Source: Nitrosopumilaceae archaeon (lineage in GTDB: Archaea; Thermoproteota; Nitrososphaeria; Nitrososphaerales; Nitrosopumilaceae). From it: a DNA stretch of 64,000 nt. Made by a program: the position numbers and the translations under genes. The number at the start of each line of letters is the position of its first letter. Position 1 is the stretch's first letter. Location: contig OZ242365.1 in the NCBI GenBank assembly GCA_965208905.1, positions 1,376,001-1,440,000 of the forward strand. Direction: 5' to 3'. The notes beneath the pieces were generated by a model. That model was not told the DNA's origin. It searched no databases and saw only the letters and a program-made list of their open reading frames with translations. Below, in pieces: positions 40,237-62,126 of this stretch.

Positions 40237-41707
<1,471 letters not shown>

Positions 41708-50566: not shown

Positions 50567-51778
50567 ATGTTTGGTTTTACATTTAAATCTAAAAATAAAA
50601 ATAAACCCAAGTCAAAATATCTCATTGAATTTAGATTCTCAGGTTATGCCAAACGCACCATCAAAGATCTACAATCAGCAATCTCAAGGAACTTTCCGAT
50701 TTCGTCTCGTAGAAGGTATGTGCCGCATATTACACTAGTCGGGCCGCTATACACCAGAGATGCCAAAAGGATGATCACCGAGGTTCAAAACGTGATCAAG
50801 CAGCAACGTACTACCCCCACATTCCAAATAGATGGTTTTGGTGTGTTCGAAGATAGGGCAATATTTGTTAAAATCACACCATCGCCGGAGTTGATCCAAC
50901 TACGCAAAGAGATCATAGAACGATTAGATGGATTTTGTGAACTAGGGGAGTATGATCGTGGTACGTACAATCCGCATGCTACACTACTACTGAATACAGA
51001 TTTACAAAAAGGTAGACAAGACTATCAATTCAACAAGATACTAAAGTATCTTGACAGTTGGAAGGTGCCAAGCATGAAACAAGGTGTGTTGCGTATAACA
51101 ATACTGAACAGTCATGGCAAGATCGCATGTGAATACGACCTGATACTCAAAAAACTTCTTGACCGTCAGGATGCACTTGATAGCGATATGCGCAAAAAAA
51201 CATTGGACCAATGGCGTAAGCAAAATTCCCCCATAACACAACAGTACTCGGATCCTGTTGTTGAGAATAACCGTACATTTGTGGTAAGTGATCTTCATTT
51301 TGACCATGACAACATAATACGATTCTGTAACCGGCCTTTCCAATCGGTACGCGATATGAACCAAACAATGGTAGACAACTGGAACAAGACTGTAGACTAC
51401 AATGACAGGGTTTACTATCTAGGTGACATGACCTATGGCCGGCAGAGGAGGCCCATTGATTTCTGGCTCTCAAAACTGAACGGAAATATCCTGTTTATAC
51501 GAGGTAACCACGACACCGATATCATCACAAGAGCGACTGTTTTAAAAGACAAGTTCCATATAATGTACAAAGAATATGAATTTCTATTGATGCATGATCC
51601 ATACAGACCAAAACACTATGACGGTTGGATCATTCATGGTGATAAGCACAACAATAGTCCTGATAAGTATCCACATGTTTGTTATGAAAACAAGACCATC
51701 AACGTATGTGCAGAGTTTACTGAATACACGCCCCTGAATCTAAATAACATAGTCACATCCATCACCGCTCGCAGATAG
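50567..51778 (+). CDS. 2H phosphoesterase (2'-5' RNA ligase-like) fused to calcineurin-like metallophosphoesterase
   Basis: PHITL and PHATL; SDLHFDH, LGD, GNHD, MH, HGDKH. Confidence 0.88.
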   Translation: MFGFTFKSKNKNKPKSKYLIEFRFSGYAKRTIKDLQSAISRNFPISSRRRYVPHITLVGPLYTRDAKRMITEVQNVIKQQRTTPTFQIDGFGVFEDRAIFVKITPSPELIQLRKEIIERLDGFCELGEYDRGTYNPHATLLLNTDLQKGRQDYQFNKILKYLDSWKVPSMKQGVLRITILNSHGKIACEYDLILKKLLDRQDALDSDMRKKTLDQWRKQNSPITQQYSDPVVENNRTFVVSDLHFDHDNIIRFCNRPFQSVRDMNQTMVDNWNKTVDYNDRVYYLGDMTYGRQRRPIDFWLSKLNGNILFIRGNHDTDIITRATVLKDKFHIMYKEYEFLLMHDPYRPKHYDGWIIHGDKHNNSPDKYPHVCYENKTINVCAEFTEYTPLNLNNIVTSITARR

Positions 51779-51991: not shown

Positions 51992-52939
51992 ATGGTAGTA
52001 AATTTTATACGTGTATACAAAATTTATCACGATATAATGTTGTTTTCAATACAAGGCAAAAGACTCAACAGAATAAGAGAAATAGGTTTTGAGTTAGAAT
52101 CAGAGCTGCAACGCCTAATAGAAAACAACCTAGAATCCATACTAGAGATCAGTTTTGTAAAAAACGAGATGAAAGTGAGAAACTTTCGCATCGATACGGT
52201 TGGATTTGATCCGGACTCTAGGTCCTTTGTGATTGTAGAGTATAAACGGGACAAAAACCAATCTATAATAGATCAGGGCATGGCATACGTGTCACTACTG
52301 CTGGAAAACAAGGCAGAATTCATACTTGCGTATAATGAAAAATTTCAAAAGCCTATACGAAAGGAAGACATAGATTGGACATCATCAAGAATTGTTTTTA
52401 TCGCCAAATCGTTTACCGAGCATCAAAAACAGGCATCGGGGTTCAAGGATCTGCCCATAGAGCTTTATGAGATAAAACATTACGAAAACAAAACCATACT
52501 GTGTAATTCGGTAACCACAAAAAACACAGAATCAATTAAAACTATACGTAAGAAACCAAACGACAGAATCAATAAGGAGATAAGAACATACACTGAAGAA
52601 GATCATCTAGCAAGGGCGGCCCCGGAAATAAAACAGATTTACGTAGAAATCAAACAGATCATGGAATCTTTGTATGATGACATGCAGGTTATTCCAAAAA
52701 AATTGGCGATAACGTTCAAAGCAGAACATAAGTTTGCTTGGGTTGTTTTACGCAAGAATGCTATTGATGTCTATCTCAAAGCCAAAGTAGACCGTCTAGA
52801 TGATTCCAAAAGAATTCTACAGGATGTCACCAATATCGGCCACTGGGGCGGAGGCGACTCACGGATAAGAATTGCAACGACCTCAGAGTTACCATATGTG
52901 CGTGGCCTGATTGAACAAGCCTACACTGAATTCAAGTGA
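51992..52939 (+). CDS. PD-(D/E)xK (NucS-like) nuclease fused to a DUF5655-like domain
   Basis: ESELQ, RIDTVG...VIVEYK; C-terminal DVTNIGHWGGGD. Confidence 0.75.
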   Translation: MVVNFIRVYKIYHDIMLFSIQGKRLNRIREIGFELESELQRLIENNLESILEISFVKNEMKVRNFRIDTVGFDPDSRSFVIVEYKRDKNQSIIDQGMAYVSLLLENKAEFILAYNEKFQKPIRKEDIDWTSSRIVFIAKSFTEHQKQASGFKDLPIELYEIKHYENKTILCNSVTTKNTESIKTIRKKPNDRINKEIRTYTEEDHLARAAPEIKQIYVEIKQIMESLYDDMQVIPKKLAITFKAEHKFAWVVLRKNAIDVYLKAKVDRLDDSKRILQDVTNIGHWGGGDSRIRIATTSELPYVRGLIEQAYTEFK

Positions 52940-52956
52940 CAAATAGGCAGGTTCAC

Positions 52957-54255
52957 ATGAATCCAAAACATAAAACAAAATTCAAGAAGGTGAAATGGCT
53001 CTTTGGCAGGGAGATTGAGATTCCAGAAGGATGGAAATGGGAAAAACTAGAAAATAATTCTACATTAAAGGGTAGAATTGGTTGGCAAGGATTAACAACT
53101 GCCGAATACCTAAAACATGGTAAGTATTATCTCGTAACAGGAACTGATTTTAAAAACGGTTCCATTTATTGGGAAAATTGTGTTTATGTAAATAAAGACC
53201 GTTACTCTCAAGATTCTAACATTCAACTAAAGAAAAATGATGTCTTAGTTACAAAAGATGGAACGATAGGAAAAGTTGCCTTTGTTTATATTCTTTCAAA
53301 ACCTGCAACACTAAACAGCGGAGTTTTTGTCATTCGTCCAATTAACAAAACGTATTTTCCTTTATTCCTATACTATGTTTTACGCTCAGATTATTTTGAG
53401 AAGTTTCTAGATAGACTCAAAGCAGGATCAACCATTAATCATCTATATCAAAAAGATTTTGTTAATTTTAAATTTCCGATCCCATCGAGATCAGAACAAA
53501 CCCGTATTGCATCAATCCTTGGCGGAGTTGATGCATGTATAGAGGCCACACAGAAAATAATTGAAAAATATGAGAGATTAAAGAAAGGCCTAATGCAGCA
53601 TCTTTTAAGTCACGGGATTAATCATACCAAATTCAAAAAAGTGAAATGGTATTATAACAAAGAAATAAAAATTCCATATAAGTGGGAGTGGAGTGAATTG
53701 GGTAACGAAGGGAGCCTTTCTTCAGGTGCCACACCTAAACGCGATCACCCTAAATATTACAATGGTAATATTTTATGGGTTTCAAGTGGAGAATTAAATT
53801 ACAATTTAATTACAACGACTAACGAATTAATAACTGTCCTCGGTCTACAAAAAACTAATTTAAAAATTCACTCAGAAGGTACTTTTCTTTTTGCAATTAC
53901 TGGATTAGAAGCAAGAGGAACGAGAGGGCGGTGCGCAATCTTGGGAAGACCTGCCACTATTAACCAATCCTGTATGGCTTTTTATAATTCTTCATTAGAT
54001 GTTAAATTTTTATTTTACTATTTTTTAGCATTTGGAGAAAAAATTATTTTTGCAACAGCACAAGGAACAAAACAACAAAGTTTAAATTTAGAAATATCTA
54101 AGAAAATCAAAATTCCTATTCCGTCTTTCTCAGAACAACAAAAGATTGCATCAATCCTGTCAGGAGTTGATGCAATTCAAAATCTGTTTTGGCCTATAAA
54201 AATATGTGTAGGATTAGTAATGTTTTTAATACTTTTAAGAGTAGTAAAACTATGA
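52957..54255 (+). CDS. hsdS: Type I R-M specificity subunit hsdS-A (two TRDs; conserved C-terminal helix missing after the site at 54147-54174)
   Basis: IPEGW, P..SEQ.RIASIL..VD, LKKGLMQHLL; homology ends abruptly after SGVDA. Confidence 0.92.
   Translation: MNPKHKTKFKKVKWLFGREIEIPEGWKWEKLENNSTLKGRIGWQGLTTAEYLKHGKYYLVTGTDFKNGSIYWENCVYVNKDRYSQDSNIQLKKNDVLVTKDGTIGKVAFVYILSKPATLNSGVFVIRPINKTYFPLFLYYVLRSDYFEKFLDRLKAGSTINHLYQKDFVNFKFPIPSRSEQTRIASILGGVDACIEATQKIIEKYERLKKGLMQHLLSHGINHTKFKKVKWYYNKEIKIPYKWEWSELGNEGSLSSGATPKRDHPKYYNGNILWVSSGELNYNLITTTNELITVLGLQKTNLKIHSEGTFLFAITGLEARGTRGRCAILGRPATINQSCMAFYNSSLDVKFLFYYFLAFGEKIIFATAQGTKQQSLNLEISKKIKIPIPSFSEQQKIASILSGVDAIQNLFWPIKICVGLVMFLILLRVVKL
52993..53029 (+). 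repeat. Inverted repeat A (partner 56942-56978), 35/37 identical
   Basis: AAATGGCTCTTTGG(CAG/AAA)GGAGATTGAGATTCCAGAAG. Confidence 0.85.
53508..53535 (+). repeat. Putative recombination site B (partner 56460-56487, inverted)
   Basis: TGCATCAATCC-TTGGC-GGAGTTGATGCA; 34/35 identity over 53506-53540 vs 56455-56489. Confidence 0.9.
54147..54174 (+). repeat. Putative recombination site C (partner 55800-55827, inverted)
   Basis: TGCATCAATCC-TGTCA-GGAGTTGATGCA; 32/33 identity over 54142-54174 vs 55800-55832. Confidence 0.9.
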
Positions 54256-54464
54256 GTACAATCGTACAGAAAAAGACGTATGCAGTGATAATTGCAAAAG
54301 ATCTTGAAGAAGGAGGATTTGTCGGTACGTGTGATGAACTGCATGCAGTTTCAGAAGGAGATACATTTGGGGAGATCGTAGAAAATATGAAAGAAGCAAT
54401 GGAGTTAGCGGCCGAAGAATCTGGAAATCCAACTAACTTCAATATGTTAGTAGTAGAATGCTAA
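54252..54464 (+). CDS. hicB: HicB-family antitoxin (short form)
   Basis: YAVIIAKDLEEGGFVGTCDELHAVSEGDTFGEIVENMKEAMEL. Confidence 0.85.
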   Translation: MSTIVQKKTYAVIIAKDLEEGGFVGTCDELHAVSEGDTFGEIVENMKEAMELAAEESGNPTNFNMLVVEC

Positions 54465-54700
54465 TGTCAAAGTTTCCAAGTGTGTCAGGTAATCAAATGA
54501 CAAAATATCTTCAAAGTAAGGGGTTCGCCATAACAAAGAGAAGAGGAAGTCATGTAACATTAAGATACAAAAATATTTTTACAGTTATACCTTTGGGTAG
54601 TAAAAGGCTGAAGATCAGAACTCAGTTTTCCATACTACTGTATGCTGGTATTAGTAAAGAAGAATTTGTTAATGACTATGACAGTGGGCTGGTAGCATAA
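54458..54700 (+). CDS. hicA: HicA-family mRNA interferase toxin
   Basis: LQSKGFAITKRRGSHV...VIP...ILLYAGISKEEF. Confidence 0.88.
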   Translation: MLMSKFPSVSGNQMTKYLQSKGFAITKRRGSHVTLRYKNIFTVIPLGSKRLKIRTQFSILLYAGISKEEFVNDYDSGLVA

Positions 54701-54757
54701 AGTAGCTGATAACTCTCACTTGCAAGTAGAAATAGAAACTTTTCGATTAATCTATAC

Positions 54758-55678
54758 ATGTCCAAACACACAAATCAAAGAAGTATGATGCTGTTTGAAG
54801 AATCAATAAAATCAAAATACACCAAGCAGAATTACATATCACATCTAAACCAATTCAAAAAGTTTAGCGGTATATCTAATGTAGATCATTGGCTGAATAT
54901 TCCATCAAATGAACTACAAACTGTACTAGAAGATTATGTCATATACTTAAAGCATACTACGAGCCCAAACTCTATCCCATCAAAGCTTAGGGGCATAAGA
55001 CATTTTTTTGTGATGAACCGAATTAAGCTTGACTGGGACATAATTTGTAAGATGTTCCCTCCTAAACAAAAAACTTCTACTTTGAGAGCATACACCACAG
55101 GAGAGGTACAAAAGATGCTTTTGCATACCAAGAACTCAAGAGATAAAGCTCTAATTCACTTCCTGGCATCAACCGGAGCAAGAATCGGAGTGTTTGATCA
55201 CCCGTTGTTAATAAAACATAGACAAAAAATGCCATCAAATTGCACTGCGTTTCTGTTTTATGCAGGAACTGTTGAAGAATATTGGTCATTTCTCACACCG
55301 CAGGCAACTAAGATACTTGATGTCTATCACAACATACGTAAACGCGACGGTGAAACTTTTAAGCCAGACACTCCCATATTTGTAACATCAAAACATAATT
55401 CAACTCAGCTTAGTTGGAGTGGTGCACGCTCTGTAATATATAGAAATATTTCTAAAACCACAATAAGACTCAAGCATGGTAATCGTTTTAACGTTCAAGC
55501 AGACCATGGATTTAGAAAAAGATTTAACACCATACTTAAGATGGATAATTCTGTAAACCATAATATAGCAGAAAAATTAATGGGGCATAAAAATGGTCTA
55601 GATGGGGTATATTTTACTCCGTCGCTGGAAGAATTATTTACAGAATTTAAAAAGGTTATAAATCGATTGCAGATCTAA
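54758..55678 (+). CDS. Tyrosine recombinase (probable hsdS invertase)
   Basis: Catalytic residues present: STGAR, HGFRKR, LMGH, VYF. Confidence 0.92.
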   Translation: MSKHTNQRSMMLFEESIKSKYTKQNYISHLNQFKKFSGISNVDHWLNIPSNELQTVLEDYVIYLKHTTSPNSIPSKLRGIRHFFVMNRIKLDWDIICKMFPPKQKTSTLRAYTTGEVQKMLLHTKNSRDKALIHFLASTGARIGVFDHPLLIKHRQKMPSNCTAFLFYAGTVEEYWSFLTPQATKILDVYHNIRKRDGETFKPDTPIFVTSKHNSTQLSWSGARSVIYRNISKTTIRLKHGNRFNVQADHGFRKRFNTILKMDNSVNHNIAEKLMGHKNGLDGVYFTPSLEELFTEFKKVINRLQI

Positions 55679-55700
55679 CTGTGTCGATGAAAATGTGTAA

Positions 55701-57014
55701 TTATATTTTTACTCTAATTTTTCCAGTGAGGAGCTTCTGCATCAATCCTTTCTTTAGACGTTCTAATTTTTTCTTATATTCCTGATTCTTCTGAATGTAT
55801 GCATCAACTCCTGACAGAATTGATGCAATCTTGGTTTGTTCATCTATTTCAGGTATAGGAATTATAAAATTTCTTAGATCTTTTTGTGTGAATAAAGGAA
55901 CTGTAGTACCAGATGTAAATGCTTTACAATATGTTTGAAATGGTTTTGATTTGAAGAACCAATAGAGGAATTCTGGTTTTAACGATTTATCATGCACTCG
56001 AACTGTAACAACATGTGAATTGACTGTAGTTGGTTCTGGAAGTTTTTTTACAAATCCAATTCTTCCAATGTCTCCATCTTTTGCAACTAATACATCTCCA
56101 TTTTGCAATTGAATTTCTGGAGATTCAGAATATCTAAATTGACTCAATCGTTTAATACCTTGTGTAAAATTAATTCCATATAGGATATCTACTAAACTCC
56201 AAACAGATAGCATCAAGAAACCTGATTCAACGTATTCGTCAGAGCGAAGATTTTTCCATCCAATTCTCCCGTGTACTGTGGCAAATATATTCAATCTAGA
56301 TAACTGCCAATCTACAGGAATTTTATAATCTATAAAATGCCTTCCGAAAGTTATCTTTTTGAACTTTATGTGACCAATACCTCTAGTCAGAAGCTGTTGC
56401 ATCAAACCCCTCTTCAGACGTTCTGTTTTCTCTATTACCTTCTGCGTGGATTCAATACATGCGTCAACTCCGCCAAGGATTGATGCAATCTGAACTTGTT
56501 CTGGAAGTGGAGGTATAGGCATAAGTGAATTAGAAACAACGGTACTTGTAATCGCAGGATACGCCATTCCTTCCATTTGTCTAAAATAATTTTCATGAAA
56601 ATAATGACTCTGACAATAATTAAAAAGAAAATGTGGATGACAAGCAGATTTGGATCTTAGAACTGCAAATCCCGTAGAACAAACTATATTTGATTTATCT
56701 ATACTTATTAAAGAAAATGCTTTCAGATATGGGCGCACCAATGATATGATGACATCATCTACTCTTACAATCCTCTGAGCTCTACTAGGACGTTCATATA
56801 ACTGAAATTTTTCTAATTTTGTTGTTTGAAAATTCTTGATGGCTGAGATATCAATATAATCAATTTCATCAAATCTGTAGTCGTTTTGAATCTGTTCAGG
56901 ATTGATTTTTGCAATATCCTGTATGCACAACAGTCTCCACTCTTCTGGAATCTCAATCTCCTTTCCAAAGAGCCATTTTACTTTTTTAAAACTATTGTTC
57001 AGTTTTGTATTCAT
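55701..57014 (-). CDS. hsdS: Type I R-M specificity subunit hsdS-B (complete)
   Basis: Two TRDs, both conserved helices, ends LKKGLMQKLLTGKIRVKI; start MNTKL. Confidence 0.95.
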   Translation of the reverse strand: MNTKLNNSFKKVKWLFGKEIEIPEEWRLLCIQDIAKINPEQIQNDYRFDEIDYIDISAIKNFQTTKLEKFQLYERPSRAQRIVRVDDVIISLVRPYLKAFSLISIDKSNIVCSTGFAVLRSKSACHPHFLFNYCQSHYFHENYFRQMEGMAYPAITSTVVSNSLMPIPPLPEQVQIASILGGVDACIESTQKVIEKTERLKRGLMQQLLTRGIGHIKFKKITFGRHFIDYKIPVDWQLSRLNIFATVHGRIGWKNLRSDEYVESGFLMLSVWSLVDILYGINFTQGIKRLSQFRYSESPEIQLQNGDVLVAKDGDIGRIGFVKKLPEPTTVNSHVVTVRVHDKSLKPEFLYWFFKSKPFQTYCKAFTSGTTVPLFTQKDLRNFIIPIPEIDEQTKIASILSGVDAYIQKNQEYKKKLERLKKGLMQKLLTGKIRVKI

Positions 57015-57034
57015 ATGGCCCCCACTACTACAAT

Positions 57035-58558
57035 CTAAACTTTGAACCCCAGTTCCTTCATGTCTTGTATGACCTTGCATTCTAATTCTTTGCGTTCATC
57101 ATTTAACTGATTGAGATCATTTAGAGTCTCCTGAATGTCAATCTCCTCCTCTGGTTCTGATATGTCCACGTATCTTGGGACGTTGAGATTGTACTCGTTC
57201 TCCTTTAATTCTTCAATACCTGCAACATGACAATATCTGTCAACATCTCGAAAGTTACAAAAATGTTTTGCAATCTTGTTAATGTCTTCTTCTCTGAGAT
57301 TGTTCCTATTCTTACCCTCTAGGTATTCTTTTGCCCCATAAATGAAGATTATTTTGTTTTTTCTCTTTGTTGGTTTTTTCTTGTTTAGAACCAAAATGCA
57401 TGCAGGTATGCCGGTACCAAAAAATAGTTTTTCAGGTAGTGCAATGACTCCCTCTATGACATCTTCGTTTATCATGCCTTCCCGTATGTTTTTTTCTGCT
57501 CCTCCACGAAACAAAACCCCCTGCGAGCAGATTATGGCAGCCTGTCCAGTATTATTTAGTTGTGCAAACATATGTTGTATGAATGCAAAGTCTGCTTTGC
57601 CCTTTGCAGGGGGAACTCCAAAACGAAATCTATTGTATGGATCATTTTCTGCGCCCTTGTCATTCCAGTCCATCGAGAACGGAAAATTGGCAAGCACCCT
57701 ATCATATGTCTTGAGAGTGCCCCCCTCTACATGTTGTGGTTTTGCCAACACATCGCCATACTCTATTGTAAAGTTAGGTATTCCATGTAGTACCATGTTC
57801 ATCTTACACATTGCCAAGTTTCCATAGTTGGATTCCTGTCCATCCAGTACCAGATTTCTCGGATCACTGTTTTGTCCCTCTACATGTTTGCGGGACATTA
57901 TCAACATGCCGCCGGATCCGCATGTAGGGTCACATATGCGCATTCCTTCTTTTGGATCTATTATGTTCACTAGTAGATTGACTACCTCCCGCGGCGTAAA
58001 GAATTCGCCACCCTTCTTTTTTGTAGCATCTGCAAACTGCTCGAGTAGATACTCGTATGCGTCACCAAATATGTCCTCTTTTTCAAGATCTGAGTTTCTA
58101 AGTCTGGGTTCGTTAAAATGAGATATGAGATTTGCAAGCTGATCATCAGGATACTTTCTGGGATCCGAATACTTTGTATTTGTCAGAACTCCCTCAAGTC
58201 TTGGATTTGCCAACTCAATCTTTTTGCATAACTCGTCTATCTTCTGACCAACTTTGCGACTCACGCCCTGTAGATTATGCCATCTTGCATCGCCAGGTAC
58301 AAAAAAGTCATGGTAAAATTCCAGATTTGCATCCTCTTCTGACTTGCCTTGACTCAACAATTCTTCTACATTCTCCTCAAACCTGTCATTGAGACGCTTG
58401 AGAAACAACAAAGTCATGACAGGTTGTCTGTACTCTGATGCATCAAGGCTACCACGCAGTATGTCTGATGCCTTCCACAGATGTATCTTGAGTAAGTCTA
58501 GTGTTACATTGCTCAATATATCTGACAAATAATAGCAGGACTTAATAGAGATTCCCAT
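57035..58558 (-). CDS. hsdM: Type I R-M methyltransferase subunit (true start may be about 58511)
   Basis: LWKASDILRG, GEFFTP, DPTCGSGG, ANFPF, YNLNVPRYV. Confidence 0.95.
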   Translation of the reverse strand: MGISIKSCYYLSDILSNVTLDLLKIHLWKASDILRGSLDASEYRQPVMTLLFLKRLNDRFEENVEELLSQGKSEEDANLEFYHDFFVPGDARWHNLQGVSRKVGQKIDELCKKIELANPRLEGVLTNTKYSDPRKYPDDQLANLISHFNEPRLRNSDLEKEDIFGDAYEYLLEQFADATKKKGGEFFTPREVVNLLVNIIDPKEGMRICDPTCGSGGMLIMSRKHVEGQNSDPRNLVLDGQESNYGNLAMCKMNMVLHGIPNFTIEYGDVLAKPQHVEGGTLKTYDRVLANFPFSMDWNDKGAENDPYNRFRFGVPPAKGKADFAFIQHMFAQLNNTGQAAIICSQGVLFRGGAEKNIREGMINEDVIEGVIALPEKLFFGTGIPACILVLNKKKPTKRKNKIIFIYGAKEYLEGKNRNNLREEDINKIAKHFCNFRDVDRYCHVAGIEELKENEYNLNVPRYVDISEPEEEIDIQETLNDLNQLNDERKELECKVIQDMKELGFKV

Positions 58559-58611: not shown

Positions 58612-61599
58612 ATGCATTTTGATGTCGGCAGGGGGGATGAGGCAACAGAATCGGAGCTTCCGGCACTCAAACAGCTTGTTGCCATGGGATACGAATACAA
58701 GACCCAAGCAGAACTAAACAAGACACGACGGGATTTTCGTGAAGTGTTGTTATACGACAGACTGGAAAGGGCAATCAGAAGACTCAATCCAGATATTGAC
58801 GATGATGGAATTAATGATGCCATAATGCAGATAGCAGAGGACTCGTATCCACATCACCTGGACATTATAGACACAAACGAGAGGATCTGGGCCAAGTTGG
58901 TAGAACTCTCAAAATCCAGTGGACTAATTCCCATAGTGGTGACACAGATTTCTGATGGTGAGCCAGTACAGAGAATAGTCAAGGTGTTTGACTTTAAAGA
59001 TCCACAAAACAATGACTTTCTTGTGACCAATCAGTTTCATCTTGATGGATTCAAGCGCCACATACTGCCTGACATAGTTATATTTGTAAACGGAGTCCCA
59101 CTGGTAATAATAGAGTGCAAATCGCCTGCACTGCTTGATCCAATAGTAGAGGCAGTAGAAAAGAAAAACTTTAACAGATATCAGCAAAGAGGCGAGGGAT
59201 ATGAACGGCTCTTCTTTTACAACCATTGCCTTGTGGCCACATGTGGAACCTTGGCAAGAGTGGGAACTGTAGGATCTACTGCAAACCATTTTGCAAGATG
59301 GGCCAAACCACATCCCATGACAGAAGATGATGTGGAGAGCCTCTGCGGCGCAAAGCCACGCGAACAGGAGATCCTTATTGCAGGATTGTTATCCAAGAAA
59401 AATCTGCTTGATCATCTGCAAAACTTTGTACTGTTTGACATCAAGGGAAACCAGCGCGTCAAGATGATTGCAAAACACCAACAATTCCACGCAGTAACGC
59501 AATGCGTAAAAAGACTGAGTGAGGATACAAAAGACAAAGGTGGAGTAATATGGCACACACAAGGATCTGGCAAATCATTTTCCATGTTGTGGTTTGCAAC
59601 ACATCTAAAGTACAAGCTTGACAATCCACCGATTCTCATAATTACTGACAGAAAGCAACTTGACAAGCAGATCCACGAGACATTCAAAAAGTGTGGTTTT
59701 CCAAGCCCGGTCAGGGCAAAGTCCGGACTACATCTTGCCGAACTACTCAAAAACCCGCGCGGAAAGACGATAATGGCTATAATAGACAAATTTGCAACTA
59801 CGGCAGAGCCTTTTACAAAAGATAAAGTGATATGCTTGGTAGATGAAGCACATCGTTCCCAATTCAAGATAAATGCCGAACAGATGAGGGCCGCTATGCC
59901 AAATGCAGTATTTTACGCTTTTACTGGAACCCCAATCACAAAGCCCGAGAAGAACATCTACAAGGTATTTGGACCACTCATTGACAAGTACGGCTTTCAA
60001 GAGTCACAGGCAGATGGTGCAACAATCCCTATAAAATACCAGGGAAGGATGCCACAACTGCATGTAGAAGGAGGGACTACAATAGATGAGATATTTGAAA
60101 GGGTATTCTTTGATATGGATCAGGAACTAAAGGACAAACTCAAGAGGCAGTATGTTACCAAGGGTAAGATTGCCGAGGCCCCATCACGAATAAAACAGAT
60201 AGCACTAGATCTTACAAAGCACTATACAAAGCATATAGAACCCAATGGTTACAAGGCAATGCTTGTCGCACCATCAAGAGAAGCTGCAGTGACATACAAA
60301 AGAGAGCTTGACATGATAAATGCGCCGCCTTCCAAGATAATAATGACATCGTCCTTGGGAGAGAGGGGGAAGGACGATCACAGTTGGGATGACTATTATC
60401 TTTCGACAAAACAACAAGAGCACGAATCAGAGAAATTCAAGAGTCCTGATGATACTACAAAGATTCTCATCGTGGTAGACATGCTACTTGTGGGCTATGA
60501 TGTTCCCATATGCCAAGTATTATATCTGGATCACGGGATAAGGGAGCACAACCTGCTTCAGGCAATAGCCAGAGTGAACAGACCATATGACGATGCAAAG
60601 AAATACGGCCTCATAGTGGATTATTCGGGAATCACAAAAGAGCTGCAGAAAGCCTTGGAAATGTTTGAGAATCAGGATGTGGATGGTGCCTTGACTCCTA
60701 TGGATGAACTTCTTCCCATATTGAAGCAGAGGTACGTTAATGCAATAGCATTCTTTGATGGGGTTGACATGGAAAATACAGGTAAGATAATCGAGCATTT
60801 TGAGTCTGCACATACAAGAGATTCATTTGAATACACTTTCAAGACATTTGCAGCAGCACTTGATTCTGTCTTGCCTAGTAAGGAGGCAGAACCATATATT
60901 GCAGATTTTAAGGCATTAAGCAGGGCACGACAAATAATTAGAACATATTATGAAGGAATAGAATTCAGCATGCACAGCTATGCAAAAAAGATTCAACAAC
61001 TAATAGATGATCACATACACTCCCTTGGCATAAAAGAGCTCATAGAGCCAAGGACCATCACCCATGAGAACTTTCTGGCAACTATACAAGAAAAAATGCC
61101 AGAAAACAAGCGTGCCCAAGCTGCCCTCATACGTAACAAGGCAATTCAGGTAATCGAAGAACTTATGCCAAACAACCCTGCATATTATGAAAGACTGTAC
61201 GAGATGTTGCAGAGAATAATCCAGGATGAAGAGGATAGACGAAAGAAAAATGCAGATTACTTTACAAATCCAGAAGAATATGAAAAAATATACAATAAAG
61301 TACTTGCTGAAGAGGCAGAAAGAAAGAAAATTTTTGGAGATTACGAGGCTACCCAGTTCGAGTTCTCACTGTACAGCAGACTCAATCAAACGCAGAACAG
61401 ACAGGATTCCATTAATATTGTACAAAAGATATACAAAAAGATCAAACCACTTACAGGTCTAGTAGATTACAAGACAAATCCTATGGTCGAGAAAGATATA
61501 AAAAAAATAGTCTACGAGACCCTCAAGCCACACATGAATTATGAACAAATCATGAGTGTTGCAGAAGAGACGATCATGCTGGTGAGGCACAGATTATGA
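58612..61599 (+). CDS. hsdR: Type I R-M restriction subunit
   Basis: PDIVIFVNGVPLVIIECK, HTQGSGKS, DEAHRSQ, FTGTP, QAIARVNR. Confidence 0.96.
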   Translation: MHFDVGRGDEATESELPALKQLVAMGYEYKTQAELNKTRRDFREVLLYDRLERAIRRLNPDIDDDGINDAIMQIAEDSYPHHLDIIDTNERIWAKLVELSKSSGLIPIVVTQISDGEPVQRIVKVFDFKDPQNNDFLVTNQFHLDGFKRHILPDIVIFVNGVPLVIIECKSPALLDPIVEAVEKKNFNRYQQRGEGYERLFFYNHCLVATCGTLARVGTVGSTANHFARWAKPHPMTEDDVESLCGAKPREQEILIAGLLSKKNLLDHLQNFVLFDIKGNQRVKMIAKHQQFHAVTQCVKRLSEDTKDKGGVIWHTQGSGKSFSMLWFATHLKYKLDNPPILIITDRKQLDKQIHETFKKCGFPSPVRAKSGLHLAELLKNPRGKTIMAIIDKFATTAEPFTKDKVICLVDEAHRSQFKINAEQMRAAMPNAVFYAFTGTPITKPEKNIYKVFGPLIDKYGFQESQADGATIPIKYQGRMPQLHVEGGTTIDEIFERVFFDMDQELKDKLKRQYVTKGKIAEAPSRIKQIALDLTKHYTKHIEPNGYKAMLVAPSREAAVTYKRELDMINAPPSKIIMTSSLGERGKDDHSWDDYYLSTKQQEHESEKFKSPDDTTKILIVVDMLLVGYDVPICQVLYLDHGIREHNLLQAIARVNRPYDDAKKYGLIVDYSGITKELQKALEMFENQDVDGALTPMDELLPILKQRYVNAIAFFDGVDMENTGKIIEHFESAHTRDSFEYTFKTFAAALDSVLPSKEAEPYIADFKALSRARQIIRTYYEGIEFSMHSYAKKIQQLIDDHIHSLGIKELIEPRTITHENFLATIQEKMPENKRAQAALIRNKAIQVIEELMPNNPAYYERLYEMLQRIIQDEEDRRKKNADYFTNPEEYEKIYNKVLAEEAERKKIFGDYEATQFEFSLYSRLNQTQNRQDSINIVQKIYKKIKPLTGLVDYKTNPMVEKDIKKIVYETLKPHMNYEQIMSVAEETIMLVRHRL

Positions 61600-62126
61600 A
61601 AAAAAACATCCAAGTAATTACTGCCACTATTCCATACAAGATCATACGGAGTGACAGGAGAAGAACATCTGAGATACAGGTAGGGGAGAATGGCATCGAA
61701 GTCAGGGTACCCATGCACAAGAAAGACAACGAGGTCATGGATATGATACATTCCAGACAGCAATGGATCTACAAAAAATATCTAGAATTTCAAACGGAGA
61801 AAAAGGGGTTCAAGAGTAGAGTTGGCAGACCATACATTGAGCGGCGTGTAGATGAGCTTGCAGTAAAGGTAGGTGCCAAACCATCCAAACTATTCATAAG
61901 ACCACTCAAAACAAGATGGGGCAGTGCAACATCAAATGGGACAATCACCATAAACTCTAGACTTTTTAAGGCACCAAAAAGTGTAATCGATTATGTCATA
62001 ATTCACGAGTTGTGCCACCTCAAGATACCGGGGCATTCTAGAACATATTGGAGTCTTGTGGAAATGCACATACCAAACTATATGGAAAAGATAAAATGGC
62101 TGAAAAAATATGGTAGGTTTATATGA
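61596..62126 (+). CDS. M48/YgjP-like (DUF45) metal-dependent hydrolase
   Basis: KTRWGS, DYVIIHELCHL; ATGA overlap with hsdR. Confidence 0.9.
   Translation: MKKNIQVITATIPYKIIRSDRRRTSEIQVGENGIEVRVPMHKKDNEVMDMIHSRQQWIYKKYLEFQTEKKGFKSRVGRPYIERRVDELAVKVGAKPSKLFIRPLKTRWGSATSNGTITINSRLFKAPKSVIDYVIIHELCHLKIPGHSRTYWSLVEMHIPNYMEKIKWLKKYGRFI

What the first reader, a model, noticed from the sequence alone, without database searches (positions are those of the whole stretch)
52957..57014. Invertible hsdS shufflon: a predicted four-state phase-variable Type I R-M system in an archaeon
Seen: two hsdS genes face each other around an intact tyrosine recombinase. They share near-identical inverted repeats exactly at the TRD boundaries (B 53506-53540/56455-56489; C 54142-54174/55800-55832), and hsdS-A loses HsdS homology right after site C, so only one C-terminal helix exists. 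Established: invertase-driven TRD shuffling is known in bacteria (S. pneumoniae SpnIII/ivr, Mycoplasma pulmonis hsd, Bacteroides). Inference: call the TRDs a,b (hsdS-A) and c,d (hsdS-B). BxB' and CxC' inversions then give four states (c-d now, a-b, a-d, c-b), each with exactly one complete HsdS. The single mobile tail selects which gene is functional, and both genes sit downstream of co-oriented genes. I know of no characterised archaeal example.
Basis: partly seen in the sequence, partly recalled or inferred. Interest (0 to 1): 0.92.

Follow-up and report, generated by a model that had tools for sequence, protein, structure and literature searches.

The report
Archaeal invertible restriction-specificity gene switch
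An ammonia-oxidising archaeon carries a restriction-enzyme locus built so that a resident recombinase can flip DNA segments and change which sequences the enzyme recognises; the design is known from bacteria, is conserved here across an archaeal family, and has not yet been seen switching in this genome.

Summary
Two hsdS genes (52957-54255 +; 57014-55701 -) flank hicB-like/hicA and a tyrosine recombinase. They share two inverted repeats: B is 34/35 identical and C is 32/33. Each holds a 28-nt dyad found only four times in the 2.2-Mb genome.

The four predicted states are all in frame, each with one complete HsdS. The host is a Nitrosopumilaceae archaeon.

Comparative support is strong.
- In 22 site pairs from 13 loci, partner sites are 98% identical and flanks 47-70%. 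Spacers differ between loci but match within pairs.
- All 10 C-type pairs have one real C-terminal helix and one junk tail.
- All 23 hsdS-linked recombinases fall in one clade.
- A 93-99% identical locus in an independent metagenome has the cassette flipped relative to hsdM.

Switching itself is not shown. The probable source runs are held only as contigs, and these give one orientation.

A published survey already lists predicted Euryarchaeota hsdS invertons (PMC7672463). This scan also noted archaeal inversion switches on other DNA (e1-2600094, e1-5246375).

Verdict: a new variant of a known kind, in a new phylum. Interest 0.6.

The parts
51992..52939 (+). DUF5655 gene directly upstream of hsdS-A and co-oriented with it; the likely source of transcription for hsdS-A
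   Evidence: Pfam DUF5655, E 1.3e-11. Weak HSDR_N_2 and NucS-like N-terminus. Homologues lie next to Type I genes in L044 and L063.
52957..54255 (+). hsdS-A: N-terminal region, TRD a, site B with central helix, TRD b, site C, then a 26-codon non-HsdS tail (no C-terminal helix)
   Evidence: Methylase_S, E 1.5e-43, 2 stretches. The alignment to HsdS-B ends at residue 406. Tail sequence seen.
53506..53540 (+). Site B (dyad core 53508-53535, TGCATCAA-N12-TTGATGCA), encoding IASILGGVDAC
   Evidence: 34/35 identical to B'. Dyad found.
54142..54174 (+). Site C (dyad core 54147-54174): same arms as B, with the central 4 nt GTCA where B has TGGC
   Evidence: 32/33 identical to C'. Dyad found.
54175..54251 (+). 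Junk tail of hsdS-A. It also holds a conserved TATA-like block (TTTTTAATAC, 54223-54232) about 24 nt upstream of the hicB-like start; predicted promoter of hicB-hicA-recombinase
   Evidence: A T-rich TTAAT-type block sits at the same distance from the start in 16 of 17 aligned upstream regions, judged by eye. The spacing between site C and hicB is about 78-89 nt in relatives.
54252..54464 (+). hicB-like antitoxin gene (70 aa); its start overlaps the hsdS-A stop (ATGA)
   Evidence: It sits upstream of hicA. Only weak family evidence: a homologue in L044 hits HicB_lk_antitox at E 0.0018, below the cut-off; the window's own protein has no hit. Conserved next to the recombinase in 18 of 43 close loci (hicA or hicB).
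54458..54700 (+). hicA toxin gene (80 aa)
   Evidence: Pfam HicA_toxin, E 2.8e-6, 27.8 bits against a cut-off of 27.
54758..55678 (+). Xer-like tyrosine recombinase (306 aa); predicted invertase
   Evidence: Weak hits to Phage_integrase (E 8.9e-4, below cut-off) and to XerA/XerD/XerC models (E 4.7e-12 to 4.5e-8, below cut-offs). R142, H250, R253, H277 and Y285 are invariant in 30 homologues. It belongs to the hsdS-linked clade.
55701..55799 (-). The locus's only HsdS C-terminal helix exon (YIQKNQEYKKKLERLKKGLMQKLLTGKIRVKI). It lies on the invertible C-C' segment, convergent with the recombinase gene
   Evidence: Conserved in the helix-bearing copy of all 10 C-type pairs.
55800..55832 (-). Site C' (dyad core 55800-55827)
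56455..56489 (-). Site B' (dyad core 56460-56487)
55701..57014 (-). hsdS-B: TRD c, B', TRD d, C', full tail; the currently complete specificity gene, downstream of hsdM
   Evidence: Methylase_S, E 1.5e-32, 2 stretches. 437 aa with the full tail.
57035..58558 (-). hsdM
   Evidence: N6_Mtase, E 1.9e-106; HsdM_N, E 3.1e-24.
58612..61599 (+). hsdR
   Evidence: SWI2_SNF2, E 6.6e-70; HSDR_N, E 1.4e-29.
61596..62126 (+). YgjP-like metallopeptidase gene, a recurrent companion of hsdR in these loci
   Evidence: Pfam YgjP-like, E 1.4e-40. Next to hsdR in L044, L048, L051, L057, L063, L071 and L075.
52954..53035 (.). 5'-end inverted repeat 'A' (partner 56936-57017), 79% over 82 nt. Not counted as a recombination site
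   Evidence: It lacks the dyad. No comparable 5'-end repeat was listed for L075, L044, L059 or L071.

Best explanation

What the sequence shows. Two full-start hsdS genes lie head to head on opposite strands. Each conserved 'IASIL-xx-VDA' stretch, one after each TRD, doubles as a 28-bp recombinase site: two 8-bp inverted arms (TGCATCAA / TTGATGCA) around a 12-bp spacer. B/B' and C/C' share the arms but differ in the central 4 bp (TGGC against GTCA).

Inferred mechanism. The resident Xer-like tyrosine recombinase can synapse any of these sites. It completes exchange only between partners with the same spacer, as with heterospecific lox sites. That keeps exchanges in register. B x B' swaps the distal TRD together with the tail. 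C x C' swaps only the tail cassette.

The cassette. The C-C' segment carries hicB-like, hicA and the recombinase behind what looks like their own TATA-type promoter. At its far end, on the other strand, it carries the only C-terminal helix of the locus. Whichever hsdS gene faces that end is complete. The other runs into the hicB promoter region and is truncated.

Outcome. Four specificities result. c-d and c-b are read behind hsdM. a-b and a-d are read behind the DUF5655 gene. Shown: the anatomy, the frames, conservation across relatives, partner-site co-variation, and a flipped relative. Inferred: catalysis by this recombinase, spacer-controlled partner choice, the promoter, loss of function in the truncated copy, and the switching rate. 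HicBA may restrain or stabilise the cassette, by analogy with tvrAT in the pneumococcal tvr locus.
For: - Anatomy and domains.
- Repeats: B 34/35 and C 32/33. The dyad occurs only at these 4 places in the genome; 0 of 100 shuffles gave any match.
- In-silico exchange gives 4 in-frame states, each with one full and one truncated HsdS.
- Recombinase: R142, H250, R253, H277 and Y285 are invariant in 30 homologues.
- Linkage to hsdS: of 43 genome loci with a recombinase at least 55% identical, 24 have hsdS within about 9 kb, 13 have it on both strands, 12 have paired dyads at least 26/28 identical, and 18 have hicA or hicB. Of 36 loci below 55%, none has hsdS. Of 81 metagenome and viral loci, almost all 54% or less, 3 have any R-M gene and none has an inverted hsdS pair.
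- Tree of 66 full-length recombinases: all 23 hsdS-linked rows lie in one clade of 34 (SH-aLRT 99); 0 of the 32 rows outside are hsdS-linked.
- Partner sites: 22 of 24 best-partner comparisons reach at least 26/28. Pooled site identity is 602/616 against 47-70% in 30-nt flank bins. Spacers are 12/12 in 19 pairs and 11/12 in 3, yet differ between loci and between B and C.
- Single tail: 10 of 10 C-type pairs.
- Flipped relative: in run X1 (an independent study, 93-99% identical pieces) one contig reads hsdM, then 583 nt, then site C, the junk tail and hicB on one strand. That is the opposite orientation of the cassette to the window.
- TRD gain or loss exactly between C'- and B'-type sites: X1 joins 55815 to 56476, and L041 differs from L058 in the same way at 98-99% identity.
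- Cassettes without hsdS tend to be broken: L072, L083 and L103.
- A conserved TATA-like block lies upstream of hicB.
- Bacterial precedent for a toxin-antitoxin pair plus recombinase inside an hsdS shuffling locus: PMC6265443 (passages).
Against: - No inversion was seen in this genome. In three runs of the probable source sample, a single 17,438-nt contig spans all four sites with no differences and no strand-switch joint. Contigs drop minority forms, so this limits abundance only loosely. It is still the one direct look available, and it shows one state.
- The flipped relative is one contig (depth 6.6) from a mixed metagenome. Its hsdS genes appear to hold one TRD each, so it is not simply the window inverted.
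- Among 79 related genome loci I found no pair differing by one clean inversion.
- The recombinase scores below the curated cut-offs of every family model tried. Only its N-terminal part matches a solved XerA (E 0.0059).
- Part of the dyad follows from the conserved peptide with A/T-rich codons. A solitary hsdS elsewhere in the genome has a partial version.
- Two of the four states need hsdS expressed away from hsdM, behind a DUF5655 gene. No expression data were examined.
- Several relatives have repeats 130-860 nt long. Ordinary homologous recombination could act there.
Confidence: 0.7

Rival explanations
1. A fossil or very slow system. The locus was assembled by past recombination, but it no longer switches within populations, or does so only on evolutionary time. 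Site identity is kept up by occasional gene conversion between the two genes and by selection on the shared peptide.
For: One orientation in the probable source contigs. No pair of related genomes differs by a single clean inversion. Degenerate solo cassettes exist in relatives.
Against: Both hsdS reading frames, the recombinase and its catalytic residues are intact. In the window, L044, L048 and L075 identity is confined to about 28-35 nt, while adjacent codons for the same peptide have diverged. That pattern is not what gene conversion tracts of ordinary length leave. Near-identical loci differ in cassette orientation and TRD content, so rearrangement is recent.
Confidence: 0.18
2. The locus works mainly by excision and reintegration, as in the pneumococcal tvr/SpnIV locus. 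The recombinase cuts out circles between directly repeated sites (B with C, or B' with C') and reinserts them, so TRD cassettes are gained, lost and moved. Inversion is a side reaction.
For: B and C share arms and are direct repeats within each gene (family D1). One TRD is missing exactly between C'- and B'-type sites in X1 and in L041 compared with L058. A TA-plus-recombinase block as in tvrATR (PMC6265443). TRD a is 75% identical to a distal-position TRD in L025/L059. B and C inversions alone cannot produce that change of position.
Against: The partner sites with identical spacers are the inverted ones, whereas B and C differ in the central 4 bp. The two genes are always found inverted to one another in the paired loci.
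Confidence: 0.09
3. The recombinase is simply the integrase of a mobile island carrying the R-M genes. The repeats are only conserved HsdS coding sequence.
For: The locus is A+T-richer than its surroundings: GC 0.34-0.37 at 52-58 kb against 0.42-0.54 in the 2-kb bins between 16 and 52 kb. Type I S and M subunits and Xer-type integrases are among the commonest genes of thaumarchaeal integrated elements (PMC6563490, Table 1 passage).
Against: In the window, L059, L071 and L075 the gene sits between the two hsdS genes beside the helix exon, not at an island edge; in L041, L048 and L057 it sits beside one hsdS gene. Its clade is hsdS-linked, while 0 of 36 more distant relatives are. Partner-specific spacer identity is not explained by coding constraint. 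Only one distant relative (38%) was found in viral contigs.
Confidence: 0.03

Closest known systems
Four-way hsdS switches of Streptococcus suis and Enterococcus faecalis, and the six-way SpnIII/ivr (cod) locus of S. pneumoniae (CreX/PsrA)
   Same: A Type I locus with inverted hsdS copies, inverted repeats inside the hsdS coding sequence, a locus-encoded tyrosine recombinase, and in-frame TRD chimeras (passages in PMC7394358, PMC7672463 and PMC4948785).
   Different: In those systems the expressed gene stays behind hsdM and silent copies are swapped into it; PMC7672463 says only the first hsdS encodes the intact subunit. Here both genes have their own starts, the proximal TRDs never move, and the only C-terminal helix travels with the recombinase. 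The complete gene therefore alternates between two strands and two upstream genes. The host is an archaeon.
Pneumococcal tvr / SpnIV locus (tvrATR)
   Same: Toxin-antitoxin homologues and a tyrosine recombinase sit together between hsdS parts. Two kinds of repeat guide the exchange. TA homologues and an attenuator limit recombinase expression (PMC6265443, abstract and passages).
   Different: tvr uses direct repeats and circular intermediates. Here the matched-spacer partners are inverted. The TA pair here is HicA/HicB-like. Whether this recombinase belongs to the TvrR clade of PMC7672463 was not tested.
Predicted Euryarchaeota hsdS invertons in the survey of Huang et al. 2020 (PMC7672463)
   Same: Archaeal Type I loci with several hsdS genes and an invertase homologue. 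Table 1 lists 4 Euryarchaeota loci and Table 2 lists 11.
   Different: That is a different phylum, and no Thaumarchaeota or Nitrososphaerota row appears in the two tables as quoted. Those loci are listed, not analysed, in the main text.
Mycoplasma pulmonis hsd1 locus (recalled; named in PMC4948785)
   Same: Two full-length hsdS genes in inverted orientation recombine at sites within the coding sequence. Relatives L048 and L057 even place hsdR and/or hsdM between the two hsdS genes.
   Different: Details of the M. pulmonis sites are recalled, not checked here. The window's gene order differs, with the recombinase and TA pair between the hsdS genes.
Cre/lox with heterospecific spacers (recalled)
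   Same: Identical binding arms with different central spacers restrict which sites exchange.
   Different: This is an engineering precedent recalled from memory. Spacer control is inferred here from co-variation only.

Membership tests
Type I restriction-modification system | HsdM with N6-adenine methylase domain | tested here: met
   N6_Mtase, E 1.9e-106; HsdM_N, E 3.1e-24.
Type I restriction-modification system | HsdR with nuclease N-terminus and SF2 motor | tested here: met
   HSDR_N, E 1.4e-29; SWI2_SNF2, E 6.6e-70; ResIII, E 3.5e-17.
Type I restriction-modification system | HsdS with two TRDs separated by conserved helices | tested here: met
   Methylase_S with two stretches in both genes. 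The central helix is present in both; the C-terminal helix only in hsdS-B.
Invertible hsdS locus ('epigenetic inverton', PMC7672463) | Two or more hsdS genes in opposite orientation in one Type I locus | tested here: met
Invertible hsdS locus ('epigenetic inverton', PMC7672463) | Inverted repeats inside the hsdS coding regions | tested here: met
   B 34/35, C 32/33. 0 of 100 shuffles gave a match.
Invertible hsdS locus ('epigenetic inverton', PMC7672463) | Locus-encoded invertase homologue | tested here: met
   Xer-like tyrosine recombinase between the genes. It belongs to the hsdS-linked clade.
Invertible hsdS locus ('epigenetic inverton', PMC7672463) | Recombinant alleles are in frame and full length | tested here: met
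   In-silico exchange gives 4 states, each with one full HsdS.
Invertible hsdS locus ('epigenetic inverton', PMC7672463) | Inversion observed within a population | tested here: inconclusive
   The probable source runs are contigs only and show one orientation. One related metagenome contig shows the flipped cassette. No raw reads were available.
Invertible hsdS locus ('epigenetic inverton', PMC7672463) | Each allele gives a distinct methylation motif | not testable with these tools
   No methylome data were accessible.
Tyrosine recombinase (Xer/integrase) family | Catalytic R...HxxR...H/W...Y | tested here: met
   R142, H250, R253, H277 and Y285 are invariant in 30 sequences. Their assignment to catalytic roles rests on spacing recalled from XerD.
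Tyrosine recombinase (Xer/integrase) family | Scores over a curated family cut-off | tested here: not met
   Phage_integrase 19.5 bits against 27.1. XerA 46 bits against 220 and XerD 37.6 bits against 329.6. Some homologues carry precomputed PF00589. It is a divergent member, not an orthologue of XerA, XerC or XerD.
HicAB toxin-antitoxin | HicA toxin domain | tested here: met
   PF07927, 27.8 bits against a cut-off of 27.
HicAB toxin-antitoxin | HicB antitoxin domain upstream | tested here: inconclusive
   The window's protein has no hit. 1 of 8 homologues hits HicB_lk_antitox at E 0.0018, below the cut-off. The name rests on position and size.
tvr-type excision-reintegration locus (PMC6265443) | TA homologues and recombinase between hsdS parts | tested here: met
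tvr-type excision-reintegration locus (PMC6265443) | Exchange guided by direct repeats through circular intermediates | not testable with these tools
   Direct repeats B/C exist. TRD-sized differences between near-identical loci fit this. Circles cannot be seen in contigs.

The most novel reading that the evidence does not exclude
A dedicated clade of archaeal invertases, confined so far to Nitrosopumilaceae, runs phase-variable Type I systems with their own site grammar. The recombination sites are written into the conserved HsdS peptide: common arms with pair-specific spacers that police partner choice. A self-promoted hicBA-recombinase cassette carries the only C-terminal helix, so it decides which of two separately transcribed hsdS genes is functional. 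If it switches at appreciable rates, ammonia-oxidising archaea would have phase-variable methylomes and restriction barriers. That would be the first case in this phylum and a tractable model for programmed inversion in archaea.
Probability: 0.5. Interest if true: 0.72.

Novelty: new variant of a known kind. Interest (0 to 1): 0.6.

Why it matters
Programmed DNA inversion is barely explored in archaea.
- One large survey scanned bacteria only and names archaea as future work (PMC9881135).
- A long-read screen had only 42 archaeal data sets, none from this phylum. It called chromosomal invertons 'minimally investigated in Archaea' (PMC10028968).
- A 2024 review of archaeal R-M systems has no text on inversion and no 'phase-variable' outside its reference list (PMC11033074).

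Here the switch is not a single odd locus. It is a conserved module in abundant ammonia oxidisers, with sites, partners and predicted products defined precisely enough to test by read mapping, PCR, methylome analysis or a plasmid assay.

It also offers a natural example in which spacer identity may direct partner choice. And it shows a layout in which the movable piece is the C-terminal helix, not a whole silent gene.

For ecology, it would mean that clonal archaeal populations present several restriction specificities to their viruses.

Tried and rejected
- Direct test by reads. The only runs holding the whole stretch (X6, X8, X9 laid; X9 = X8 = X6 one sample; probably the source) are kept as contigs. 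One contig covers the locus in the window's orientation. Contigs cannot show minority junctions, so this neither supports nor excludes switching.
- Short 33-42-nt contigs at 55800-55841 with 2-3 differences are not from this genome, because the dyad occurs only 4 times. I take them to be other hsdS genes in the sample.
They are no evidence of anything, habitat included.
The contig of P0003, a recombinase 96% identical over 73% of the query, could not be fetched.
- Metagenome scans. The window's recombinase alone found no relative. The alignment found 80 loci, nearly all 54% identical or less; with the one viral locus, 3 of 81 had any R-M gene nearby and none an inverted hsdS pair.
- The viral contig scan found 1 distant relative at 38%.
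- The PDB profile search gave only a weak N-terminal XerA match.
- The HicB family assignment stayed weak.
- I considered the 5'-end repeat 'A' as a third site that would bring all four alleles behind hsdM. I rejected it: it lacks the dyad and is not seen in the closest-architecture relatives.
- I looked for pairs of related genome loci differing by one inversion. Several pairs match on both strands (L054/L055, L055/L062, L049/L062), but they differ by more than one rearrangement. None is clean.
- The careful tree did not finish in 300 s. The quick IQ-TREE tree is what I cite. Rows dropped before the tree were loci with a broken, partial or duplicated recombinase match, which left 66 of 80.
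- One search listed 24 best-partner comparisons. Two (L049 at 19/28; the second site of L058 at 22/28) were dropped before the pooled count.
- Literature: 8 searches. I read passages only, not whole papers. I found no experimental archaeal hsdS inversion and nothing on Nitrososphaerota.
- Supplements were closed. Those of PMC7394358 and PMC7672463 may name archaeal loci. A note from this scan says a Methanosphaera locus is in a published survey. I could confirm only that PMC7672463 tabulates Euryarchaeota loci. No main text holds Methanosphaera together with an hsdS switch.

Full report
**What is there.**

The window is bases 1,376,001-1,440,000 of a single-contig 2.21-Mb genome. Its SSU rRNA gene lies in the window (40237-41707, -) and scores 1444 bits on the archaeal model.

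Between 51.9 and 62.1 kb the open frames and their Pfam matches give this order:
- a DUF5655 gene (51992-52939, +);
- hsdS-A (52957-54255, +; Methylase_S, E 1.5e-43, two stretches);
- a 70-codon hicB-like gene (54252-54464), whose ATG overlaps the hsdS-A stop as ATGA;
- hicA (54458-54700; 27.8 bits against a cut-off of 27);
- a 306-residue tyrosine recombinase (54758-55678, +);
- on the other strand, hsdS-B (57014-55701; E 1.5e-32, two stretches) and hsdM (58558-57035);
- hsdR (58612-61599, +) and a YgjP-like peptidase gene (61596-62126, +).

The hsdS-to-hsdM part has GC 0.34-0.37. The 2-kb bins between 16 and 52 kb have 0.42-0.54, and hsdR has 0.40-0.42.

**The repeats.**

Site B (53506-53540) matches B' (56455-56489) at 34 of 35 positions. 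Site C (54142-54174) matches C' (55800-55832) at 32 of 33.

All four hold the dyad TGCRTCAAY-N10-RTTGAYGCA. It matches 4 times in the window with up to one mismatch, against none in 100 shuffles. An exact search finds it nowhere else in the genome.

Outside the core the two genes diverge. The B repeat is 72% over 148 nt. Downstream of B, the codons for an almost identical helix are only 22/30, 17/30 and 18/30 identical in successive 30-nt bins.

B and C have the same arms and differ in the central four bases (TGGC against GTCA). The single mismatch within each pair lies outside that centre.

The four TRDs are distinct. The two proteins are 31% identical overall, and TRD a is 42% identical to TRD d.

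The alignment stops at ...SGVDA. hsdS-A then reads 26 hydrophobic codons and ends. hsdS-B has the usual C-terminal helix.

**The geometry works.**

A script exchanged the DNA between the centres of B and B', of C and C', and of both. It then read the two genes from their fixed starts.

| State | Gene behind hsdM (- strand) | Gene behind DUF5655 (+ strand) |
|---|---|---|
| Present | c-d, full tail, 437 aa | a-b, truncated |
| B exchange | c-b, truncated | a-d, full, 445 aa |
| C exchange | c-d, truncated | a-b, full, 438 aa |
| Both | c-b, full, 444 aa | a-d, truncated |

In every state the truncated gene is the one that runs into hicB-hicA-recombinase.

**Relatives.**

Among 81 genomes of relatives, G000 included, the recombinase has a match at E 1e-30 or better in 15. 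All 15 are in the window's own family (14 of 48 other genomes there). None is among 9 genomes of the same genus, and none among 32 genomes of other families of the order.

The protein database holds 1447 homologues at E 1e-10 or better.

A scan of one genome per species returned 79 loci. Their titles are Nitrosopumilus, Cenarchaeum, Nitrosopumilaceae, Thaumarchaeota and the like. The exception is one 3-kb 'Hyphomicrobiaceae' MAG contig, which I take to be mis-binned.

I searched these loci with the window's proteins.
- Of 43 loci whose recombinase is at least 55% identical, 24 have hsdS within the roughly 9 kb fetched.
- 13 of them have hsdS on both strands.
- 12 have paired dyads at least 26/28 identical.
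- 18 have hicA or hicB beside the recombinase.
- 17 have hsdM.
- Of 36 loci below 55%, none has hsdS.
- Several of the 19 close loci without hsdS are short contigs.
- Three long ones have a broken recombinase gene: L072, L083 and L103.

Eighty metagenome loci and one viral locus are nearly all 54% identical or less. They add 3 loci with some R-M gene and no inverted hsdS pair.

In a quick maximum-likelihood tree of 66 full-length recombinases, all 23 hsdS-linked rows fall in one clade of 34 (SH-aLRT 99). None of the 32 rows outside it is hsdS-linked.

The window's exact gene order recurs in L075 and L059, and in L071 without the TA pair. L044 has it with a DUF5655 gene placed differently. L048 and L057 place hsdR and/or hsdM between the two hsdS genes.

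**Partner sites co-vary.**

In 14 loci with dyads in hsdS genes on both strands, I paired each plus-strand site with its best minus-strand partner. 22 of 24 comparisons reach 26-28 of 28.

For those 22 pairs (12 relatives plus the window), pooled identity is as follows.

| Region relative to the site | Identity |
|---|---|
| 28-nt site | 602/616 (98%) |
| 31-60 nt upstream | 47% |
| 1-30 nt upstream | 70% |
| 1-30 nt downstream | 64% |
| 31-60 nt downstream | 59% |
| 61-90 nt downstream | 57% |

The 12-nt spacer is identical in 19 pairs and differs at one base in 3.

Yet spacers differ from locus to locus. B-type examples are TCCTTGGCGGAG, TCCTTTCAGGAG, TCCTTTGTAATG and TCCTCTCTAGAG. A second arm family, TGAATCAA, has its own set. 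Spacers also differ between B and C within each locus.

Where partners do differ, the differences are mostly third-codon positions in the arms.

This is what sites that must match to recombine would look like. It goes beyond what the shared peptide demands.

In some loci (L041, L051, L054, L058, L062, L071) the B repeat extends for 130-860 nt. Homologous recombination could contribute there. In the window, L044, L048 and L075 only the core is identical.

**One tail per locus.**

In all 10 C-type pairs, one copy continues as a conserved helix: YIQKNQEYKxKLExLKKGLMQxLLTGxIR in the TGCATCAA-arm loci, and a different conserved helix in the TGAATCAA-arm loci. The other copy reads unrelated, mostly hydrophobic sequence.

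Where hicB follows, it starts about 78-89 nt after the site.

That stretch is not random. Aligned on the hicB start, 16 of 17 upstream regions show (by eye) a T-rich TTAAT-type block ending about 20-24 nt before the ATG. In the window this is TTTTTAATAC at 54223-54232.

I read this as an archaeal TATA box for a leaderless or short-leader hicB-hicA-recombinase transcript. That is an inference from position and conservation. If right, the cassette expresses its recombinase in either orientation, and the 'junk tail' is simply read-through into a promoter.

**Direct evidence for rearrangement.**

Nine runs hold part of the stretch. Four runs of one sample hold all of it and are probably the source, and I laid three of them. 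They exist only as contigs. A 17,438-nt contig covers 51000-59500 with no difference and no strand-switch joint. Minority forms would not survive contig building, so this sets only a loose upper bound.

Run X1 is a marine metagenome from another study. It holds pieces 93-99% identical to the window. One 1084-nt contig reads the 3' part of hsdM (57343 down to 57129). Then come 583 unaligned bases, about one TRD. Then come site C, the junk tail and hicB (54133-54418), all on one strand. In that relative the cassette therefore faces the other way with respect to hsdM.

Another X1 contig joins 55815 to 56476. That gives tail, a C-type site, then TRD c, with TRD d absent. Similarity to hsdS-B ends at about 56987 in three contigs. 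The X1 population thus seems to carry one-TRD hsdS genes around the same cassette, and more than one variant.

Independently, L041 and L058 are 99.3% identical over 4.3 kb. They differ by one TRD lying exactly between a C'-type and a B'-type site.

These comparisons show recent rearrangement at precisely these sites. They do not show its rate.

**The recombinase and the TA pair.**

The recombinase is a divergent Xer-like enzyme.
- It falls below the cut-offs of Phage_integrase and of the XerA, XerD and XerC models.
- It has only a weak N-terminal match to solved XerA.
- R142, H250, R253, H277 and Y285 are invariant in 30 homologues. Their spacing is like XerD's catalytic residues (recalled).

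HicA passes its Pfam cut-off. The upstream 70-residue protein is called HicB-like from position, size and one sub-threshold hit in a homologue.

The pneumococcal tvr locus likewise carries toxin-antitoxin homologues and a recombinase between hsdS parts. There they damp recombinase transcription and may stabilise excised circles (PMC6265443, passages). A first-reader note of this scan (e1-6365946) pointed me to that parallel.

**Comparison with what is known.**

Invertible hsdS loci are well established in bacteria: SpnIII/ivr, S. suis, E. faecalis, B. fragilis and M. pulmonis (passages).

| Paper (passages read) | What it says on archaea |
|---|---|
| PMC7672463 (survey) | 4 Euryarchaeota loci in REBASE and 11 in NCBI with invertase homologues |
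| PMC9881135 | Scanned bacteria only |
| PMC10028968 | Screened 42 archaeal long-read sets (Euryarchaeota and Crenarchaeota) |
| PMC11033074 (archaeal R-M review) | No text on inversion; 'phase-variable' only in a reference title |
| PMC7848895 (sponge Thaumarchaeota) | Notes R-M enrichment, but no recombinase or inversion |

The archaeal setting is therefore not unprecedented. But I found no experimental case and nothing in Nitrososphaerota in eight searches of the held library.

Earlier notes of this scan report an hsdS inversion switch in Methanosphaera stadtmanae (e1-2600094), a Type IIG-like switch in a Nitrosopumilus-type genome (e1-5246375) and a similar hicBA-recombinase block in another genome (e1-6366051). 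I did not test those.

This locus differs from the bacterial four-way switches in where the sites lie. They sit after each TRD, not before. Proximal TRDs therefore stay put, and the distal TRD and the only C-terminal helix move. The functional gene alternates between two transcription units.

**Verdict.**

It is a new variant of a known kind, in a phylum where it had not been described. It is conserved as a module across Nitrosopumilaceae.

The missing piece is direct detection of mixed orientations. This needs raw long reads, PCR or a methylome.

Noticed in passing
window 54223-54232 and the aligned regions of L041-L103: A conserved TATA-like block (TTTTTAATAC and variants) lies about 24 nt upstream of the hicB-like start, inside the 'junk tail' of the truncated hsdS. 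It is seen in 16 of 17 aligned regions, judged by eye, and is probably the cassette's own promoter.
   Followed up: partly
window 50567-51778: A 403-aa protein combines a 2',3'-cyclic phosphodiesterase / 2'-5' ligase-like part (TIGR02258, E 7e-8, residues 73-159) with a PdeM-like metallophosphoesterase part (E 2.4e-5, residues 232-349). It sits just upstream of the R-M locus. A first-reader note exists (e1-6365950).
   Followed up: no
window 51992-52939; L044 10073-11005; L063 3500-4417: A DUF5655 protein with a weak nuclease-like N-terminus (HSDR_N_2 E 0.0026; NucS E 0.0035) recurs beside Type I genes in relatives, in varying positions. It may be an accessory of these systems.
   Followed up: no
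L041 against L058 (two Nitrosopumilus MAGs): The loci are 99.3% identical over 4.3 kb but differ by one TRD-sized block lying exactly between a C'-type and a B'-type site. L058 also has an 860-nt inverted repeat at 98.4%. This looks like cassette gain or loss by recombination between direct sites.
   Followed up: partly
L041, L045, L049, L052, L054, L055, L058, L060, L062, L067, L069, L091: A second site family has arms TGAATCAA...TTGATGCA (peptide IESIF-xx-IDA) and its own pair-specific spacers. In several of these loci the recombinase lies outside the segment bounded by the hsdS sites.
   Followed up: partly
L048 and L057: The two inverted hsdS genes lie on either side of hsdR and/or hsdM, with the recombinase downstream. 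Exchange at their matched sites would flip the enzyme genes themselves.
   Followed up: no
L072, L083, L103 (and L050, L061): These are hicB-hicA-recombinase cassettes without a detectable hsdS. The recombinase frame is broken in three of them. An hsdS remnant with a junk tail lies near L061's cassette. Transposase-like genes are nearby.
   Followed up: partly
L075 5892-6320: A second hicB-hicA pair with a dyad-like site lies upstream of the hsdS' gene in the relative whose gene order is closest to the window's.
   Followed up: no
L067 (contig titled Hyphomicrobiaceae bacterium MAG): A 3-kb contig carries this archaeal recombinase clade and an hsdS with the TGAATCAA-type sites. It nests among Nitrosopumilaceae in the tree and is probably a binning error.
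   Followed up: no
genome G000:C1 558044-558832, 1720997-1721776, 2174291-2175073: Three more tyrosine recombinase paralogues (31-33% identical) are present, one with an internal TAA. Two further single-hsdS Type I loci lie at 592673-593851 and 1996143-1997021.
   Followed up: no
window 40237-41707 (-): The genome's 16S rRNA gene lies in this window, about 11 kb from the R-M locus.
   Followed up: no
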